64,000 nucleotides of DNA from an uncultured cyanobacterium (GCA_937899645.1 CALCCD010000128.1:21357-85356), one strand, 5' to 3'. Shown: positions 49,836-57,928, numbered from the stretch's first letter. Notes: generated by a model not told the origin, from the letters alone. Translations and numbers: made by a program.

Positions 49836-50600
49836 ATGGACAGCAGCGCAAACGTTTCGGTCACGCTCGATATCCCGCAGGAAATGTGGGAGAGCTTGCA
49901 GCACATCGCCCGCGAGAAGGGCGAAGACGCTCGTGCGCTGCTGCGGACGTATCTCGATCGCGGTGTGAAGCGCGATCGCGCGGACTCTCCGAAGCGCTAT
50001 CTGCTCGACACGTGCATTTTTAACAAGCTAGTCGAGGGTTCGCTGCACCACTCCGATCTTCCACAAGATGGCCGCTACGTTATTACCCACGCCCAGCTTG
50101 ACGAAATCAACAATACTCCTGACACGTATAAAGAGAAGCGGGCGCGCCTTGTATTATCAGCCCTAAAAGACCTTCAGCTCGATCTCGTTCCAACTTCAGA
50201 TTGTTTAGCTGATTTCAGCCGTGTGGGTATGGCATATGTAAGTGACTCAGATATATTTGATTTGCTGAAAGCTGCGCTAGATAAACGTCGAAAGAAAAGT
50301 AGTAATACAGTTGATGCACTCCTCGCATCCAGTGCGATACAGCAGGGTCTCATACTCATAACAACGGATCGCAACTTGAGCGACGTTGCTCAACAGTATG
50401 GATGTGACGTCGTCTTTCTAGAGAGCAAGGGACTAGCGGCTGAAGAACCGAACGAGACGGTGAATAAATCTCTGCCGTTCTTTGAGGCGATCGCCGGGAT
50501 TGGCGCTTCCGATGAAGGAGATATATCTGAAAATGATGAAGAATTTCTCCGCCGTGAAATTCATCCCATTTATGGCTGGTCAACGAAACCAAATCAATAA
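49836..50600 (+). CDS. Fusion protein: RHH (CopG-like) segment + PIN domain + C-terminal VapB-like tail
   Basis: VSVTLDIPQEMWESLQHIAREKGEDARALLRTYLDRGV shows a ribbon-helix-helix pattern. RYLLDTCIFNKL ... VDALLASSAIQQGLILITTDRNL shows the PIN acidic motifs. The tail FFEAIAGIGASDEGDISENDEEFLRREIHPIYGWS resembles antitoxin C-termini. Confidence 0.65.
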   Translation: MDSSANVSVTLDIPQEMWESLQHIAREKGEDARALLRTYLDRGVKRDRADSPKRYLLDTCIFNKLVEGSLHHSDLPQDGRYVITHAQLDEINNTPDTYKEKRARLVLSALKDLQLDLVPTSDCLADFSRVGMAYVSDSDIFDLLKAALDKRRKKSSNTVDALLASSAIQQGLILITTDRNLSDVAQQYGCDVVFLESKGLAAEEPNETVNKSLPFFEAIAGIGASDEGDISENDEEFLRREIHPIYGWSTKPNQ

Positions 50601-51014
50601 ATGGTTGCCATTCTAGACTCGAGCTTTCTCTTTGCCCTGACCAATGGAAAAGACCGAAGTCACGACATCGTTTTAAAGACAGCACGGGGACTGCAAGGTA
50701 AATCTATTCTGCCCGATGTGGTTTTGCCTGAAGTTTGCCACCTGATTCTCGCGCGGCTCGGCCACTTCACCATGCGCCAATTTCTCCGTAGCCTCGACCC
50801 AGAACACCTTCAGCTAGAACCGCTGCACGCCGAAGATCTCGTGCGCGCTCGGGCATTGCTCGAAACATATGCGAATATTCAGCTCGACCTTGCAGATGCT
50901 GCGATTATCGCGATCGCTGAGCGCTTGAACATCACGCAAATCTGCACCCTCGATCGCCGCGACTTCTCGATCGTCCGTCCCCGACACTGCGAGTACTTCG
51001 AGGTGTTGCCCTGA
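50601..51014 (+). CDS. vapC: PIN-domain toxin VapC
   Basis: MVAILDSSFLFAL (Asp 1), LPEVCHL (Glu), LDLADAAIIAIAERL and CTLDRRDF (Asp 3/4). Its ATG immediately follows the upstream TAA (TAAATG). Confidence 0.8.
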   Translation: MVAILDSSFLFALTNGKDRSHDIVLKTARGLQGKSILPDVVLPEVCHLILARLGHFTMRQFLRSLDPEHLQLEPLHAEDLVRARALLETYANIQLDLADAAIIAIAERLNITQICTLDRRDFSIVRPRHCEYFEVLP

Positions 51015-53004: not shown

Positions 53005-53265
53005 CGCGGTTGCCGAAAGGTCAGGGCCATCTTCCCACGATCGCGATATCCCGAGCGCCTTAGCGACACGCGCGCCAGCCCCAATTCTGGCGAAATTCTT
53101 TAGAGTGCATTAAGCTCACCCGCCGCAGCGGAATGCTAGCGATCCCTGCGCTACGATCGCGGCAAAGGCCAGGTGCGCGTGTTGCGTTTCGTTCGGTGCG
53201 CTCGGCCAGCGGCAGTTAGTGGCAGCTTCCCAACGCCCGCGATCGCCCCACACCCTAAGGCTTTT

Positions 53266-54795
53266 ATGGTTTCACTGGCAGAAAATCCCCTGCGCGTCGG
53301 CCTCCAGCAGGATCGCGTCCCCGACCCGCAAATCTTGATTATTTTCGGTGCGTCCGGTGACTTGACCCAGCGTAAGCTCGTCCCCGCCATCTATCAGATG
53401 CACCTAGAGCGACGCCTCCCGCCGGAAATCACGATCGTGGGCGTGGCGCGGCGCGAATGGAGCCACGACTTCTTCCGCGAACACATGCGCGAGGGCGTTG
53501 AAGAGTTCGGCGGCGGCCTGCAGTCCGAGGAAGTTTGGAACAGCTTCGCGAAGGGACTGTTTTACTGTCCCGGAAATATCGACAATCCCGAGAGCTACCA
53601 AGAGCTAGAAGCGTTCCTCGCCGAGCTGGACAAACAGCGGGGCACGCGTGGCAACCGCGTCTTCTATCTTTCCGTTGCGCCGCGCTTCTTCGCCGAGGCG
53701 ACCCAGCAGCTCGGCAAGGCCGGAATGCTCGACGACCCGAACAAGCAACGACTGGCGATCGAGAAACCCTTCGGTCGCGACCTCGCCACCGCCCAGGAAC
53801 TCAACCGCGTCGTTCAGAATGTCTGCGACGAGCGCCAGATCTACCGAATCGACCACTACCTCGGCAAAGAAACCGTCCAGAACCTGCTGGTTTTCCGGTT
53901 CGCTAACGCCATTTTCGAGCCGCTCTGGAACCGGCAGTACGTCGATCACGTGCAGATCACCGTCGCCGAAAAAGTCGGCCTAGAGGGGCGCGCTGGATAT
54001 TACGAAACGGCGGGCGCGCTGCGAGATATGGTGCAAAACCACCTGATGCAGCTCTTTTGTCTGACGGCGATGGAGCCGCCGAACTCCCTTGATGCCGACA
54101 GCATTCGCGGCGAAAAGGTGAAAGTCCTTCAGGCGACGAGTCTGGCCGACGCAGACAACATCGATCGCTCCGCCGTACGCGGCCAGTACACCAGCGGCTG
54201 GATGGGCGGCAAAACCGTCCCCGGCTACCGCGACGAAGAGGGAGCCAGCCCTGGCACGACGACACCAACCTACGCAGCCATCAAGCTGCATATCGATAAC
54301 TGGCGCTGGAAAGGCGTGCCATTCTACCTGCGGACGGGCAAGCGCATGCCCAAAAAAGTGTCTGAAATCGCAATCCAGTTCAAGGATGTGCCGTTTTTGA
54401 TGTTCCCGTCGGCGGCGAAGCAGGCGAACCCGAACGTTTTGGCGATGCGAATCCAGCCGAATGAGGGCATCGGGATGCGCTTCGAGGTGAAGACGCCGGG
54501 GAGTTCGCTACGAACGCGATCGGTGGAGATGGACTTCCGCTACGATGCAGCGTTCGGAAAGGCGAATACGGATGCCTACAGTCGCCTGCTGATCGACTGC
54601 ATGTTGGGGGATCAGACGCTATTTACGCGGGGCGATGAGGCGGAGTCGTCGTGGCGAATCCTGACGCCGCTGTTGCAGGTGTGGGATGCGCCCGCGCCGC
54701 CGGAGTCAATCCCGCTGTATGAGGCGGGAACGTGGGAGCCGGTGGAGGCGGAGTTGTTGATGAATCGCGATGGTCGCCGTTGGCGTCGGTTGTGA
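53266..54795 (+). CDS. zwf: Glucose-6-phosphate 1-dehydrogenase
   Basis: [17 protein letters not shown] motif and the active-site RIDHYLGKE. Start trimmed to the ATG at 53266, giving 509 aa. Confidence 0.9.
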
Positions 54796-54806
54796 TTCGG
54801 TCTATT

Positions 54807-54966
54807 CGGTAGGGTGTGTTATTGCAGCGGCGATCTTTGGGTTCTACGAACAATTGATACAGGCAATAACGCACCGCCGGATGTGGTACGAGATCGCGGT
54901 GCGTTACGGCGAAATTCAAGGTATCGCGATCGGGTCAATCCTTTCGCCGCCGAACACACCCTACCG
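54807..54966. repeat. 160-nt nested inverted-repeat element
   Basis: 14-bp perfect outer stem 54807-54820/54953-54966. Inner stems: 54818-25/54863-70 (8 bp, extendable to 12 with one G-T), 54868-77/54896-905 (10 bp), 54907-14/54942-49 (8 bp). Confidence 0.6.
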
Positions 54967-55011
54967 CTGCACCACATTTTTTAGAGACCACAGAAGATAG
55001 GTTTTTCTTAA

Positions 55012-55575
55012 ATGAACGCTAGCAATATTCAGGATGCAAACTATACCCAGATGGTATCCTTCATCGAGCGAAATAACTTCACGTTCCAGGAGAAAGAGGA
55101 AAATGGAGCGAAGCGAATTGACGTTCAAAGTGGCAAGAATAAATGTTGTATCAAGGTTTATTCAACTGGAACTATTCAAGTTCAAGGATCTAATTCGCGA
55201 CTAAAAGAAATTCTGGAACAGGCTAAGACCGCGATTGAAAATGAAGAAGCTCTTGATGAAATCCTCCCGTTTGAAATAGAAAGATTTCCGAATGTCTTAC
55301 GAGAGACAATTGCAGATATCGATCTTGTGATCGTGAGATTCATAGAGGAAGCAATCTTAAGCTACAAGGCGAAATCTTTACTTGGATGTGCTTTCTTGCT
55401 CGGCAGTGCATCAGAGAAAGCCATCCTGCTCTTGATTGAAACATACGGAAATGCGATTGATGACGATAAGAATAGAACAAAATTCCAGAATCGAATCAAA
55501 GGGAAGTTTATTAGCAAAGCTTTTGATGAATTCAAAATCTCCTTTAAGAGCTCAAAAAATAAACCTGATGGATAA
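55012..55575 (+). CDS. TBP-like (RNase HIII N-terminal-like) domain plus the first half of a HEPN-like helical domain
   Basis: KCCIKVYSTGTIQVQGSNS resembles B. subtilis RNase HIII N-domain CTITAYQSGKVLFQGKNA (recalled from memory). The helical region IEEAILSYKAKSLLGCAFLLGSASEKAILLLIE follows. AT-rich codons. Confidence 0.55.
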   Translation: MNASNIQDANYTQMVSFIERNNFTFQEKEENGAKRIDVQSGKNKCCIKVYSTGTIQVQGSNSRLKEILEQAKTAIENEEALDEILPFEIERFPNVLRETIADIDLVIVRFIEEAILSYKAKSLLGCAFLLGSASEKAILLLIETYGNAIDDDKNRTKFQNRIKGKFISKAFDEFKISFKSSKNKPDG

Positions 55576-55780
55576 AAATTCATGGAGCCACGATCTGGAG
55601 ATCAAGATAGAGAGTATTTTTCAGTTCTGTCGCATTTGTCGGAATGAGGTTGGGCATCCTCAACTCCCGCCAAATTTAGACAAAGGGGTGCTCCTCTCCA
55701 ATATGGGACAGTTTGTTAAGTACACAGAAGATTTATACGAGCTGATTCATTACTACCAAAATAATAACGTTGAGTTGTAG
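55568..55780 (+). CDS. C-terminal half of the HEPN-like domain (RNxxxH); overlaps the upstream ORF by 8 nt in the +1 frame
   Basis: ESIFQFCRICRNEVGHPQLP contains the R-N-x3-H HEPN signature. Removing one A from the A6 tract at 55554-55559 joins it in frame to 55012-55575. Confidence 0.45.
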   Translation: MDKNSWSHDLEIKIESIFQFCRICRNEVGHPQLPPNLDKGVLLSNMGQFVKYTEDLYELIHYYQNNNVEL

Positions 55781-55788
55781 ATTTTTTC

Positions 55789-55903
55789 TCGTTCCCACGC
55801 TCCGCGTGGTACACGCAATCTCCAGACGCTCTGCGTCGCAACTTTCTCCACACACGGGACGCAGAGCGTCCGAATGGCATTCCCACGCAGAGCGTAGGAA
55901 CGA
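55789..55903. repeat. Palindromic mini-element (MITE-like cluster of short inverted repeats)
   Basis: CGTTCCCACGC (55790-55800) pairs with GCGTAGGAACG (55892-55902, one mismatch). Internal palindromes CCACGC..GCGTGG, GACGC..GCGTC and GGACGC..GCGTCC. Confidence 0.6.
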
Positions 55904-55937
55904 TAGGTAAAACCGATTTACTCCAGCGGGGGCGATC

Positions 55938-56564
55938 GTGACAGCATCAACCATTGCAGCCAACCAAGTCGAACTGAGCGATCTCATCGATCGCCTCGAC
56001 CTCACACGTATCAACGATCTCGACTTTTTCTCTGAGTGGCAAACCGACTTGCCCACTCTCGCCGACCTCGATCGCCAACTCCTCGATCGCGTCCGTGACG
56101 GTTACTTCAATCTCATCGAGTACCCGCCCCTACGAGAAGATGCGATACGGATGGCAATTCTCGATCCGATTCTTTTCATCGCTGGACTCTATCTTCCGCC
56201 CTTTCACATTCGATCGGAAGCGCCGATTTCTCTAGAAATCCCAGATGAAGATCGGTCAATTTCCGGACGCATTGACACCCTAATCTTTCGCGAACACCTG
56301 TGGGTCATGGTCATTGAAGCAAAGCGAGCATCATTGTCGATCGAAGCAGGTTTGGCGCAATTACTAACGTATTTGCTCGCCGCTCCGAATCCAACCAACT
56401 ACGGCTTAATCACATCCGGCGGTGAATTTATTTTTGTGAAATTAGAGCAAGGTACTCGCCCCAAATATGCCACCTCCGACATGTTTGTTATGCGAAATCG
56501 CCGACGCAACGAACTTTATGAGGTACTGCAAATCTTGAAAAAACTTGCCGACCTAACGACCTAG
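55938..56564 (+). CDS. PD-(D/E)xK nuclease-fold protein (type I restriction HsdR N-terminal-like domain)
   Basis: REDAIRMAILDPILFIAGL ... GRIDTLIFREHLWVMVIEAKR gives a D ... E-x-K arrangement typical of the HSDR_N family. GTG start. AT-richer than the flanks. Confidence 0.7.
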   Translation: MTASTIAANQVELSDLIDRLDLTRINDLDFFSEWQTDLPTLADLDRQLLDRVRDGYFNLIEYPPLREDAIRMAILDPILFIAGLYLPPFHIRSEAPISLEIPDEDRSISGRIDTLIFREHLWVMVIEAKRASLSIEAGLAQLLTYLLAAPNPTNYGLITSGGEFIFVKLEQGTRPKYATSDMFVMRNRRRNELYEVLQILKKLADLTT

Positions 56565-56599
56565 CCCTAACCAAGCGCAGACTCAACCGAGAACCAATC

Positions 56600-57928
56600 A
56601 TGAGCACTCCTCTCGTCGCCCTCCAAAAACCCATCGATATTTCCCTCCAGGAAATCGAAACCGAGCTGGGTAAAATCTGGCTCGGCCAGTCCATCAGCCA
56701 GGGCTCTCCGATCGCCAGCCGCGCCACGACCTTCACGATGGTGATCTACGAGCCCGAAGAATTCCAGCAGCTCCTCGGCGGGCTGGGGTTCTACGATGGC
56801 CCGATCGATGGCATCCACGGCCCCAAGACCCGCAGCGCGATCGAGTCCGCGCAGAAAAGCTACGGTCTCGCCACGACCGGGCGCGTCGATAACGACACCC
56901 TGGCGCGGCTGCGCGAAGAGTTCGCCAAGCAGCCTGGAGATCGCCAGATTGTTGAAAACCTCAACGCGCGTGGCTACAGCCTCAGCGATGCGATCGCCGA
57001 TCGCAACCCGTCGCGGATTATTACGTTGTGTCCGACCCTTGGTGAAGACACTGGCGTGACGGCGCAGGTCTCAGCCTACTGTCCCGTCCAGAAGAAAAGC
57101 GACCGGCTCACCTGCTGCGAATACATCACGCTCCGGGGTACGAAAGCGGCACTCGATCGTGTCGGCTCTGTGGTCACGTCGCTGCTGCTGCCGAACCTGC
57201 CGACCTTTTTGTGGTGGAAAGCGACGCCCAATCCCGAGCAGGCGCTATTCCAAACCCTGAGCGAGGTATGTAGCTGCGTAATCGTCGATTCGGGCTACTT
57301 CAGCGACCCCGATCGCGAGCTGCTGAAGATGCAGGAGTCGATCGAGAAAGAGATCTATGTTGCCGACCTGAACTGGCACCGCCTCGCCGCGTGGCAGGAG
57401 CTGGCGGCTGCGGCCTACGATCCGCCGGAGCGCCGCCAGTCCCTGTGCGAACTCGATCGCATCACGATCGACTACGAAAAGGGCAACGACTCCCAGGCAC
57501 TGATGTTCCTGGGCTGGATTGCCAGTCGCCTGGGCTGGGAACCTAAATCCTATAGCTTCGAGGGCGGCGACTACGATATCAAGCACGTGCGCCTGACCTC
57601 ACCCAACGGCAAGGAGATCGAAGCCGAGCTGGCCGGCATCCCCGTGGCAGACATGGGCGAAATCCCCGGAGACCTGGTGGGGCTGCGCCTCGACTCGCAG
57701 AATCCGAATGCCGATTGCTGCACGATTTTGTGTTCGGAGACGACGGGCTGCATGCGGATGGAGTCGGGCGGCAGCGCCCAGTCTTGCCGTACGGAGCAGG
57801 TGACGACGCTGTCGGATCAGAAAGCGGAACTGCTGATGGCGCAACAGCTCCAGCGCTGGGGTCGCGACGTGCTCTACGAGGAAAGTCTGGCGCTGACGGC
57901 GCAGGTTTTGCAGTTGCCGCAGTCGTAG
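56600..57928 (+). CDS. opcA: Glucose-6-phosphate dehydrogenase assembly protein OpcA
   Basis: N-terminal pattern LQEIETELGKIW...ATTFTMVIYEPEE and the C-terminal OpcA region. Contains the LGFYDGPIDGIHGPKT putative peptidoglycan-binding-like insert that I recall in cyanobacterial OpcA. Confidence 0.9.
   Translation: MSTPLVALQKPIDISLQEIETELGKIWLGQSISQGSPIASRATTFTMVIYEPEEFQQLLGGLGFYDGPIDGIHGPKTRSAIESAQKSYGLATTGRVDNDTLARLREEFAKQPGDRQIVENLNARGYSLSDAIADRNPSRIITLCPTLGEDTGVTAQVSAYCPVQKKSDRLTCCEYITLRGTKAALDRVGSVVTSLLLPNLPTFLWWKATPNPEQALFQTLSEVCSCVIVDSGYFSDPDRELLKMQESIEKEIYVADLNWHRLAAWQELAAAAYDPPERRQSLCELDRITIDYEKGNDSQALMFLGWIASRLGWEPKSYSFEGGDYDIKHVRLTSPNGKEIEAELAGIPVADMGEIPGDLVGLRLDSQNPNADCCTILCSETTGCMRMESGGSAQSCRTEQVTTLSDQKAELLMAQQLQRWGRDVLYEESLALTAQVLQLPQS

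What the first reader, a model, noticed from the sequence alone, without database searches (positions are those of the whole stretch)
55012..55780. Undescribed-looking TBP-like (RNase HIII N-domain-like) + HEPN (RNxxxH) protein, broken at an A6 tract
Seen: ORF 55012-55575 ends ...FKSSKNKPDG*. ORF 55568-55780 starts in the +1 frame within ATGGATAA. Deleting one A from the A6 run (55554-55559) gives one continuous protein of about 255 aa (...FKSSKINLMDKNSWSHDLEIK...). The N-terminal 70 aa carry C-x-I-x-x-Y-x-[ST]-G-x-[IVL]-x-x-Q-G-x-N (KCCIKVYSTGTIQVQGSNS), which I recall as the hallmark of the TBP-like substrate-binding N-domain of RNase HIII. The C-terminal part is all-helical and has CRNEVGHP, matching the R-N-x3-H catalytic motif of HEPN RNases. 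The predicted helices of that domain lie on both sides of the frame break. Inference: a nucleic-acid-sensing domain fused to a HEPN RNase effector, which is abortive-infection or toxin logic. I do not know a described family with this architecture. The break could be a pseudogenising mutation, a homopolymer sequencing error, slipped-strand on/off switching, or genuine translationally coupled split subunits.
Basis: partly seen in the sequence, partly recalled or inferred. Interest (0 to 1): 0.75.

Follow-up and report, generated by a model that had tools for sequence, protein, structure and literature searches.

The report
Broken RnlA-like TBP–HEPN RNase gene
This is a dead copy, broken by a 4-base insertion, of a horizontally acquired RNA-cutting toxin or defence gene built like E. 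coli RnlA; intact copies spread between distant microbes as integron gene cassettes, so the family is worth study but this locus is an ordinary pseudogene.

Summary
The fold call holds. AlphaFold models and Foldseek show an N-terminal TBP-like α/β domain and a C-terminal helical HEPN domain with an invariant R-x4-H. The best full-length structural matches are E. coli RnlA and a phage 'RNaseLS-like' protein.

- **The architecture is already described.** RnlA/LsoA have it, and Anantharaman 2013 lists TBP-like+HEPN fusions.
- **The break is not at the A6 tract.** Those bases are the conserved Lys-Asn codons. More than 200 intact ~252-aa homologues read ...SSKNKPxGYGW..., and the window reads SSKNKPDG*. 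The lesion is a 4-nt AAAA insertion inside the Tyr codon (GGA TA[AAAA]T TCA TGG). An independent assembly has the same sequence, so this is a pseudogene, not a ±1 homopolymer error.

Context adds three things:
- The family is an antitoxin-less single-gene integron cassette found across many phyla.
- One cyanobacterial clade has a dedicated RNase H1 gene immediately downstream.
- The window copy (39% GC in a 61% GC genome) lies in a variable cargo slot between zwf and opcA. A related genome carries JukAB defence genes in that slot.

The HEPN domain matches no Pfam or NCBIfam model and occurs with many other N-terminal domains.

The parts
55012..55575 (+). ORF1, 187 aa. It holds the TBP-like domain and the first part of the HEPN domain, and is cut short by a premature TAA.
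   Evidence: It equals NCBI protein P0002, 'hypothetical protein, Geitlerinemataceae cyanobacterium'.
55012..55239 (+). TBP-like α-β4-α domain (aa 1-76), with the motif STGTIQVQG at 55162-55188.
   Evidence: AF2 secondary structure. Pfam RnlA_toxin/TBP/DUF3378 sub-threshold hits. hhalign aligns TGTIQIQG to RnlA 157-167 TTGKLQIQGRP.
55261..55780 (+). HEPN-like helical domain (aa ~84-255 of the repaired protein), interrupted by the frameshift.
   Evidence: C-domain AF2 model: pLDDT 87.7, pTM 0.85. Foldseek matches 2q00, 2hsb and 1o3u.
55402..55419 (+). GSASEK, the conserved helix-2 acidic motif. The Glu is invariant across the C-domain superfamily.
   Evidence: Alignment A3 invariant E53. Coordinates.
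55554..55559 (+). A6 tract. It is the conserved Lys-Asn codon pair (AAA AAT), not the lesion.
   Evidence: Codon alignment with seven homologues.
55574..55578 (+). A5 run that contains the inferred 4-nt AAAA insertion inside the Tyr codon (TA[AAAA]T). It creates the TAA stop at 55573-55575 and shifts the frame by +1.
   Evidence: An independent Logan assembly of SRR3401482 has the same sequence.
55568..55780 (+). ORF2, 70 aa in the +1 frame. It holds HEPN helix 3 with RNEVGH (55640-55657) and helix 4.
54887..55842 (.). Cargo segment specific to this genome. Homology with the sister genome L116 stops at about 54886 and resumes at about 55843. The HEPN ORF within it is 39% GC.
   Evidence: GC profile.
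55789..55902 (.). 114-nt imperfect hairpin just after the stop codon. The left arm is cargo-specific and the right arm is host sequence shared with L116. It is not a canonical attC.
   Evidence: ΔG -38.8 kcal/mol, z -7.0. The repeats occur only here in the window. The cores run GTT...AAC, the reverse of attC, and the attC test was negative. Right arm shared with L116.
53173..54795 (+). zwf (glucose-6-phosphate dehydrogenase), the left flank of the cargo slot.
   Evidence: Pfam G6PD_N and G6PD_C.
55938..56564 (+). Conserved cyanobacterial PD-(D/E)XK / HSDR_N-like gene, the right flank of the cargo slot. It is not part of the HEPN element.
   Evidence: 436 homologues at E<=1e-5, and all named ones among the 120 listed are cyanobacterial. 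The same position is seen in L116 and L117.
56600..57928 (+). opcA.
   Evidence: Pfam OpcA_G6PD_assem and OpcA_G6PD_C.

Best explanation
The locus is a pseudogene of a horizontally acquired single-gene RNase of the RnlA type. It has one TBP-like domain followed by a HEPN domain.

In intact family members (inferred): the HEPN domain dimerises to form an R-x4-H active site that cleaves RNA. The TBP-like domain either senses nucleic acid or recruits RNase H, and so gates that activity. The expected result is growth arrest or abortive infection.

In this genome (shown):
- The gene arrived as about 1 kb of low-GC cargo in a variable slot between zwf and a conserved PD-(D/E)XK gene upstream of opcA.
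- It has neither an attC site nor an RNase H partner.
- A 4-nt AAAA insertion in a Tyr codon has inactivated it. The insertion creates a TAA stop and moves the catalytic helix into another frame.

The 187-aa product lacks the R-x4-H helix and should be catalytically dead (inferred).
For: **Lesion**
- Codon-level alignment with seven homologues places it at 55573-55582.
- The Logan assembly of SRR3401482 is 100% identical over 1904 bp across the break.
- The 187-aa product is recorded on 7 contigs from NCBI, ENA and Logan.
- The window copy departs from 5 of 105 columns that are >=95% conserved; the family mean is 1.3.
- Other copies are also broken: L034, L037, L038, L040 and L041, plus many truncated representatives.

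**Fold**
- Full-length AF2 model, pLDDT 81. Foldseek top five PDB hits are all E. coli RnlA (E 3.6e-3, prob 1.0).
- The top BFVD hit is an 'RNaseLS-like protein' (E 6.3e-4).
- C-domain model pLDDT 87.7. It superposes best on HEPN 2q00 (TM 0.74, rmsd 3.6 Å), 2hsb and 1o3u.
- The motif R is invariant and the H nearly invariant; the helix-2 Glu is invariant.

**Acquisition**
- The gene is 39% GC against 61% for the window.
- Sister genomes carry different cargo at the same slot. That cargo includes JukA (E 1.4e-19) and JukB (E 6.9e-9).

**Family biology**
- An identical protein lies next to an integron integrase (TIGR02249, 352 bits) and is bounded by GTTATGC and GCATAAC...GCGTTAG.
- 39 of 91 loci have an attC-like site downstream.
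- RNase H is the only recurrent neighbour, and no antitoxin candidate appears.
- The closest relatives sit beside PLDc/GmrSD/MZB/helicase genes or an Mrr gene.
- RNase HI binds the second TBP-like domain of RnlA and is needed to activate it (PMC5308261).
Against: - No RNase activity, toxicity or phage protection has been measured for any member.
- The HEPN assignment rests on predicted structures. Foldseek E-values for the C-domain are weak (0.19-2), and non-specific vinculin-tail bundles rank ahead by E-value.
- hhalign finds no significant similarity to an RnlA family alignment.
- The window copy keeps every catalytic residue. The break lies in a disordered loop, and the ATG overlaps the stop codon, so a two-piece protein is not physically excluded.
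- I could not inspect raw reads. It is also unknown whether the NCBI MAG and the Logan contig derive from the same sequencing run.
Confidence: 0.72

Rival explanations
1. The break is a sequencing or assembly artefact, and the gene is intact in the organism.
For: The lesion lies in an A-rich stretch, and the source is a metagenome-assembled genome.
Against: - Restoring the family's sequence and length needs four bases removed. A one-base change in the A5 run leaves an in-frame TAA.
- Two assemblies (the NCBI MAG and Logan SRR3401482) are identical across the site.
- The truncated product is recorded on 7 contigs.
Confidence: 0.07
2. The two ORFs form a working split enzyme, through translational coupling at ATGGATAA, or are joined by +1 recoding at GGA-TAA.
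For: - The break falls in a loop with pLDDT <50 between helices.
- The start codon of ORF2 overlaps the end of ORF1.
- All catalytic residues are kept.
- Two more distant family members, P0143 and P0140, are also broken in this loop.
Against: - About 200 close homologues and most of the 873 relatives are single chains.
- No split arrangement recurs among the 95 loci examined.
- Other broken copies are broken at unrelated positions.
- GGA-UAA-A has no prfB-like slippery codon and no upstream Shine-Dalgarno sequence (read directly from the sequence).
- Conserved positions have begun to drift.
Confidence: 0.07
3. The family is not a phage-defence gene. It is a stress-dormancy or cassette-stabilising toxin RNase of integrons. 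This concerns the family's role and is compatible with the pseudogene verdict.
For: - 39 of 91 loci are cassette-like.
- Anantharaman 2013 proposed that integron-borne HEPN proteins induce dormancy under stress.
- Frequent pseudogenisation fits a costly toxin.
Against: - No antitoxin is present in the cassette or as a recurrent neighbour, so a classical addiction module is unlikely.
- The closest relatives and the window's own slot are defence-island contexts: GmrSD/PLD/MZB, Mrr and JukAB.
Confidence: 0.2
4. The C-terminal domain is a helical bundle with a non-nuclease role, and the R-N-x3-H motif is coincidental.
For: - Foldseek's lowest E-values for the C-domain are vinculin tails.
- No Pfam, NCBIfam or PDB sequence match was found.
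Against: - The vinculin matches have rmsd about 8 Å. The HEPN structures superpose at 3.6 Å with TM 0.74.
- R is invariant, and N and H nearly invariant (>=90%), across sequences only 28-45% identical. [quoted passage not shown]
- The whole protein matches RnlA and a phage RNaseLS-like protein.
Confidence: 0.06

Closest known systems
E. coli RnlA / LsoA (RNase LS) toxins of the RnlAB and LsoAB anti-phage toxin-antitoxin systems
   Same: - TBP-like domain followed by a C-terminal HEPN RNase domain with R-x4-H spacing (RnlA R318...H323).
- A conserved helix-2 Glu, as RnlA E258.
- RnlA is the top structural match.
- The TGxxQxQG motif is shared with the second TBP-like domain of RnlA.
- A link to RNase H. 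RnlA needs RNase HI, which binds that TBP-like domain. The cyanobacterial clade of this family has an RNase H1 gene immediately downstream.
   Different: - One TBP-like domain instead of two; 252 aa against 357.
- No RnlB-like antitoxin gene.
- No detectable sequence similarity in the HEPN domain.
- The RnlA R255 equivalent is not evident.
- Carried mainly as an integron cassette rather than in a prophage or plasmid TA operon.
RNase LS-family HEPN fusions described by Anantharaman et al. 2013 (PMC3710099)
   Same: That paper reports RNase LS-family HEPN domains fused either to a TBP-like domain like that of RNase HIII, or to Cauli_VI+RNase H. It infers that they target RNA in RNA:DNA hybrids. 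The present family has the first architecture. In cyanobacteria it adds the second as a separate adjacent gene.
   Different: I could not show that the present family belongs to the sequence family they analysed. Pfam's RNase LS HEPN models do not match it.
Integron-cassette HEPN (PDB 3jrt) of Anantharaman 2013
   Same: A HEPN protein carried as an integron gene cassette.
   Different: A profile of the present family finds no 3jrt-like chain in PDB sequences at E<=10. 3jrt is not among the 50 Foldseek hits listed for either model. Neither Anantharaman's table nor the passages read mention a TBP-like domain for it.
PADLOC candidate PDC-S35
   Same: The N-terminal ~70 residues match the start of both PDC-S35 profiles (E 3e-4 to 3e-3). 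The same TBP-like sensor module is probably shared.
   Different: Only the N-domain matches, so the effector part differs. No paper in the searchable library mentions PDC-S35.

Membership tests
RnlA/LsoA (RNase LS) toxin family | TBP-like N-terminal domain(s) | tested here: met
   The model shows α-β4-α. RnlA is the top Foldseek hit. Pfam RnlA_toxin hits 11/14 members, all below the curated cut-off (best E 3e-3). There is one domain rather than two.
RnlA/LsoA (RNase LS) toxin family | Sequence membership of the HEPN domain (Pfam PF19034 / PF18869) | tested here: not met
   No hit at E<=1 in 14 close members or at E<=0.1 in 10 distant members. True RnlA homologues all carry these models. hhalign of A3 against the RnlA alignment A6 gives probability 0.8%.
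RnlA/LsoA (RNase LS) toxin family | Cognate antitoxin gene (rnlB) immediately downstream | tested here: not met
   The cassette boundaries leave room for one gene only. No recurrent neighbour other than RNase H appears in 95 loci.
RnlA/LsoA (RNase LS) toxin family | Functional dependence on RNase HI | not testable with these tools
   Genomic hint only. A Cauli_VI+RNase_H gene lies 5-120 nt downstream in 10 loci. The seven intact copies fall in one NJ clade of eight. It is absent from the window.
HEPN superfamily | Rx4-6H motif at the C-terminal end of core helix 3, with a conserved acidic residue in helix 2 | tested here: met
   R127 and E53 are invariant and H132 nearly so in A3. The motif lies at the end of helix 108-131 and the start of the following loop. 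This matches the position described in PMC3710099.
HEPN superfamily | Four-helix up-down HEPN core fold | tested here: met
   Predicted structure only. Matches are 2q00 (TM 0.74, rmsd 3.6, prob 1.0), 2hsb (TM 0.63) and 1o3u (TM 0.47). E-values are weak, and generic bundles also score.
HEPN superfamily | Metal-independent endoribonuclease activity | not testable with these tools
   This needs biochemistry.
Integron gene cassette | attC site (R''...AAC / GTT...R' imperfect palindrome) directly after the ORF, and a GTTRRRY core upstream | tested here: not met
   - In the window it is not met. The test found no AAC...GTT pair downstream, the hairpin cores run in the reverse order, no GTTRRRY core lies upstream by eye, and no IntI is present in the window.
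- In homologues it is met: 39 of 91 loci, with IntI adjacent in L006, L007 and L009.
RNase HIII N-terminal domain (Pfam DUF3378) | Sequence match to PF11858 | tested here: inconclusive
   2 of 14 members hit, best E 0.029, below threshold. This supports a shared fold class and nothing more.
Programmed +1 frameshift (prfB type) | Slippery P-site codon before a poor-context stop, with an upstream Shine-Dalgarno-like element | tested here: not met
   The sequence GAT GGA TAA AAA offers no re-pairing for tRNA-Gly in the +1 frame and has no SD-like element upstream. Judged by eye only.

The most novel reading that the evidence does not exclude
The intact family would be an uncharacterised, antitoxin-less, single-chain relative of RnlA. 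A TBP-like module would gate a HEPN RNase of a sequence family not yet curated, either by reading RNA:DNA hybrids or by docking RNase H.

Two observations would then be linked. Integrons have spread the gene, at 62-71% protein identity, across MAGs and genomes labelled as Pseudomonadota, Bacteroidota, 'Deltaproteobacteria', Cyanobacteria and even an archaeon. One cyanobacterial lineage made the RNase H dependence explicit by acquiring its own RNase H1 gene.

The same HEPN module, joined to many other N-terminal sensors (873 relatives), would define a new modular defence superfamily.
Probability: 0.35. Interest if true: 0.6.

Novelty: new variant of a known kind. Interest (0 to 1): 0.4.

Why it matters
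For this window it matters little, because the gene is dead cargo.

The family behind it is a reasonable target for three reasons:
- It is a compact one-gene RnlA-like RNase with no antitoxin. How a HEPN toxin of this kind is held in check is unexplained.
- The HEPN–RNase H1 gene pair in cyanobacteria is a natural, separable version of the poorly understood RnlA–RNase HI dependence. It could make that dependence testable in vitro.
- Very high conservation across phyla through integron cassettes suggests a function that works in almost any host.

The zwf–opcA slot also looks like a defence-cargo hotspot in this cyanobacterial lineage.

Tried and rejected
It gives an open frame but destroys the conserved NKPxG, so it was rejected.
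- **A5→A4 repair.** It leaves an in-frame TAA.
- **Sequence searches for a named family.** Pfam, NCBIfam and PADLOC gave only sub-threshold N-domain hits and one weak Csx1 hit. PDB sequence profiles gave nothing relevant. hhalign against RnlA and an RnlA family alignment was not significant.
- **Downstream hairpin as an attC.** Rejected. The core order is reversed, there is no AAC...GTT pairing, and its right arm is host sequence shared with a genome that carries different cargo.
- **Rfam on 54700-56700.** Only a chance miRNA hit on the hairpin.
- **Promoter and terminator scan.** Nothing found.
- **RNase H or IntI in the window.** None.
- **Plasmids and phages.** No homologue in PLSDB or INPHARED. 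One distant relative in 2.9 million IMG/VR contigs.
- **First attC detector.** It used the strict RYYYAAC core with ungapped pairing and found nothing, even in known cassettes. It was replaced by a gapped test calibrated on shuffles.
- **Literature.**
  - No paper mentions PDC-S35.
  - The integron-defence papers I read do not describe this family.
  - I could not check whether 'Esos', a HEPN-like cassette system of V. cholerae, is related.

Full report
**Observation.**
- ORF 55012-55575 encodes 187 aa ending ...FKSSKNKPDG*.
- ORF 55568-55780 encodes 70 aa and starts in the +1 frame inside ATGGATAA.
- The motif STGTIQVQG lies at 55162-55188 and RNEVGH at 55640-55657.
- The gene is 39% GC in a window of 61% GC, and the dip is sharp.
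- The 187-aa product is NCBI's 'hypothetical protein' of a Geitlerinemataceae cyanobacterium MAG.

**Where the gene is really broken.** A search of 5.8 billion proteins found 222 proteins at E<=0.001. The 120 listed are almost all intact, about 252 aa long, and 61-71% identical to the repaired query.
- All read ...SSKNKPxGYGWTNDLEIK....
- The window's first frame reads SSKNKPDG and then stops. The frame is therefore still correct past the A6 tract, which is simply the conserved AAA-AAT Lys-Asn codon pair.
- Codon alignment shows the lesion. Planktothrix has CCT CAA GGA TAT GGC TGG, and the window has CCT GAT GGA TA[AAAA]T TCA TGG.
- A 4-nt AAAA insertion in the Tyr codon makes the TAA stop and shifts the frame by +1. 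Removing it restores G-Y-S-W and the family's length.
- Removing one A from the resulting A5 run leaves the stop codon in frame. Removing T55573 gives a protein one residue longer than the family.
- A Logan assembly of run SRR3401482 is 100% identical to the window over 1904 bp across the site.
- The truncated product is on record from 7 contigs.
- The copy departs from 5 of 105 columns that are >=95% conserved, against a family mean of 1.3. It keeps every catalytic residue.

I read this as a fairly recent pseudogenisation, not a homopolymer miscall.

**What the protein is.**
It shows α-β4-α (residues 3-76) followed by an all-helical domain. The frame break lies in a loop with pLDDT <50.
- The five best Foldseek hits in the PDB are all E. 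coli RnlA (4i8o, 6y2r, 6y2s, 6y2q; E 3.6e-3, prob 1.0).
- The best hit among predicted viral structures is an 'RNaseLS-like protein' (E 6.3e-4).
- Pfam gives only sub-threshold N-domain hits, but they agree with each other: RnlA_toxin in 11/14 members, TBP in 4/14 and DUF3378 (the RNase HIII N-domain) in 2/14.
- hhalign aligns only TGTIQIQG with RnlA's TTGKLQIQGRP, which lies in its second TBP-like domain.
- The C-domain, modelled alone from 35 diverse sequences, reaches pLDDT 87.7 and pTM 0.85.
- By Foldseek E-value, generic vinculin-tail bundles come first, with rmsd about 8 Å. The good superpositions are 2q00 (TM 0.74, rmsd 3.6 Å), 2hsb and 1o3u. Anantharaman et al. 2013 list all three as HEPN.
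- Across C-domains only 28-45% identical, the invariant or nearly invariant positions include Arg, Asn and His of R-N-x-x-G-H-P and a Glu in an A-S-E motif.
- These sit where HEPN places its Rx4-6H motif (end of helix 3) and its helix-2 acidic residue.

**Comparison with what is known.** The architecture is not new.
- RnlA is TBP-like, TBP-like, then HEPN, with catalytic R255, E258, R318 and H323 (PMC8266594).
- Anantharaman 2013 reports RNase LS-family HEPN domains fused to a TBP-like domain 'similar to that ... in RNase HIII', or to Cauli_VI+RNase H.

Family membership by sequence fails.
- Pfam's RnlA HEPN models do not match any of 24 members tested, although every true RnlA homologue carries them.
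- Profile-profile comparison with an RnlA alignment is not significant.
- No RnlB-like antitoxin gene is present.

I classify it as a new variant of the RnlA kind. It has a single TBP-like domain, no antitoxin, and a HEPN domain from a sequence family that Pfam, NCBIfam and PADLOC do not cover.

An exhaustive profile search found 873 relatives at E<=1e-3. In most of them only the C-domain matches, joined to other N-terminal regions. This suggests a modular effector.

**Gene contexts elsewhere.**
- *Integron cassettes.*
  - One identical protein (P0025) occurs in many different neighbourhoods.
  - In L006, L007 and L009 it is the first gene beside a divergently oriented integron integrase (TIGR02249, 352 bits).
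  - It is bounded by GTTATGC upstream and GCATAAC...GCGTTAG downstream, and is followed by a string of small ORFs each with its own attC.
- *How common that is.* A shuffle-calibrated test finds attC-like sites after 39 of 91 loci. These come from genomes labelled Halopseudomonas, Aliikangiella, Microbulbifer, Cytophagales, Syntrophales, Zoogloea, Nevskiaceae, SUP05 and others. The cassette has room for one gene only.
- *RNase H clade.*
  - The only recurrent neighbour in 95 loci is a 212-aa Cauli_VI+RNase_H protein. It lies 5-120 nt downstream on the same strand in 10 loci.
  - The seven intact copies sit in one NJ clade of eight. Where the source is named, it is cyanobacterial.
  - This echoes E. 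coli, where RNase HI binds the second TBP-like domain of RnlA and is required to activate it (PMC5308261).
- *Defence islands.* The window's closest relatives sit beside PLDc/GmrSD/MZB/helicase genes or an Mrr gene, or in a cassette (L045).
- *Not on known plasmids or phages.* The family is absent from sequenced plasmids and phages and nearly absent from viral contigs.
- *Composition.* Its genes are low-GC everywhere, with a median of 42%.
- *Decay.* Broken copies are common.

**Context in the window.** The gene lies between zwf and opcA.
- The next ORF, 55938-56564, is a PD-(D/E)XK protein. All named homologues among those listed are cyanobacterial.
- Related genomes keep the order zwf – X – PD-(D/E)XK – opcA, but X differs.
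  - L116 has a 443-aa low-GC gene. It is 45% identical to L117's JukB-like protein.
  - L117 has five genes, including JukB (E 6.9e-9) and JukA (E 1.4e-19).
- Homology between the window and L116 stops at about 54886 and resumes at about 55843. The HEPN gene is therefore about 1 kb of lineage-specific cargo in a slot that holds defence genes in a relative.
- The window has no attC, no IntI and no RNase H gene.
- A strong 114-nt hairpin follows the stop codon (ΔG -38.8, z -7). Its right arm is host sequence and its left arm belongs to the cargo.

**Mechanism, with the status of each step.**
- *Shown:* the domain architecture (on predicted structures), conservation of the catalytic motif, mobility as a single-gene cassette, the RNase H linkage in one clade, and the frameshift.
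- *Inferred from RnlA and the HEPN literature:* intact proteins dimerise through the HEPN domain to form the R-x4-H site and cleave RNA. The TBP-like domain controls this by binding nucleic acid or RNase H. The outcome is growth arrest or abortive infection.
- *Inferred for this locus:* the 187-aa product lacks helix 3 and is inactive.

**Rivals.**
- Sequencing or assembly artefact: 0.07.
- Functional split or recoded enzyme: 0.07.
- Not a HEPN nuclease: 0.06.
- The family serves integron or stress physiology rather than phage defence: 0.2. This is compatible with the pseudogene verdict.

**Verdict.** The locus is an ordinary pseudogene of an uncharacterised but RnlA-like family. Its claim of novelty and its proposed lesion site were wrong.

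Noticed in passing
window 54796-55937; L116:2446-4000; L117:375-4000: The gap between zwf and the conserved PD-(D/E)XK gene upstream of opcA holds different low-GC cargo in related cyanobacterial genomes. The window has the HEPN pseudogene. L116 has a 443-aa JukB-like gene. L117 has five genes, including JukA (E 1.4e-19) and JukB (E 6.9e-9). It looks like a defence-cargo hotspot inside the zwf-opcA cluster.
   Followed up: partly
window 55789-55902: A 114-nt imperfect hairpin with four copies of ACGCAGAGCGT (ΔG -38.8 kcal/mol, z -7). The loop and right arm (from about 55843) are conserved in L116, which carries different cargo. The left arm occurs only in the window. The cargo therefore ends in an inverted copy of the host flank. 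How this arose is unexplained.
   Followed up: partly
window 54867-54906: An 11-bp stem, TAACGCACCGC / GCGGTGCGTTA, sits at the left cargo boundary. L116 shares only the left arm, and homology ends in the loop. Both cargo junctions thus fall in loops of palindromes. The fold is not significant on its own (z -1.7).
   Followed up: partly
L011:6765-7406, L015:6826-7464, L027, L031, L034, L040, L041, L055, L070, L074: A 212-aa Cauli_VI+RNase_H gene (NCBIfam RNaseH_Halikb, 287 bits, below the 320-bit cut-off) lies directly downstream of the HEPN gene in one clade. It persists even where the HEPN gene is degraded to a 55-aa remnant (L041).
   Followed up: partly
proteins P0143, P0140 and P0002: Three independent family members, including two distant ones, are truncated or frameshifted in the same loop (...K-[ST]-[RK]-P-[ST]-D / NKPDG), just before the catalytic helix. 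Other copies break at other positions. This may be chance or a mutation-prone A-rich stretch.
   Followed up: no
proteins P0133-P0269: The C-terminal HEPN-like module (GxASE ... RNExGHP) is joined to many unrelated N-terminal regions of 90-360 aa that match no Pfam model, apart from one winged-helix hit and one DUF5677 hit. It also occurs on its own (P0139, P0148, P0173).
   Followed up: partly
window 49836-51014: Two adjacent PIN-domain ORFs, of 254 aa and 137 aa, abut end to end. They lie in a stretch of lower GC (about 51%). This may be a toxin pair or another island.
   Followed up: partly
window 56600-57928: OpcA here carries an N-terminal PG_binding_1 (peptidoglycan-binding) domain at residues 53-104 (E 2e-15). 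The same domain is present in the L116 and L117 orthologues.
   Followed up: no
L003:6001-12759, L006:1247-7100: The arrays downstream of the cassette copy contain many small ORFs with no Pfam match. L008 has an ApeA-type HEPN protein (PF18862/PF18739) as the next cassette, so two different HEPN cassettes sit side by side.
   Followed up: no
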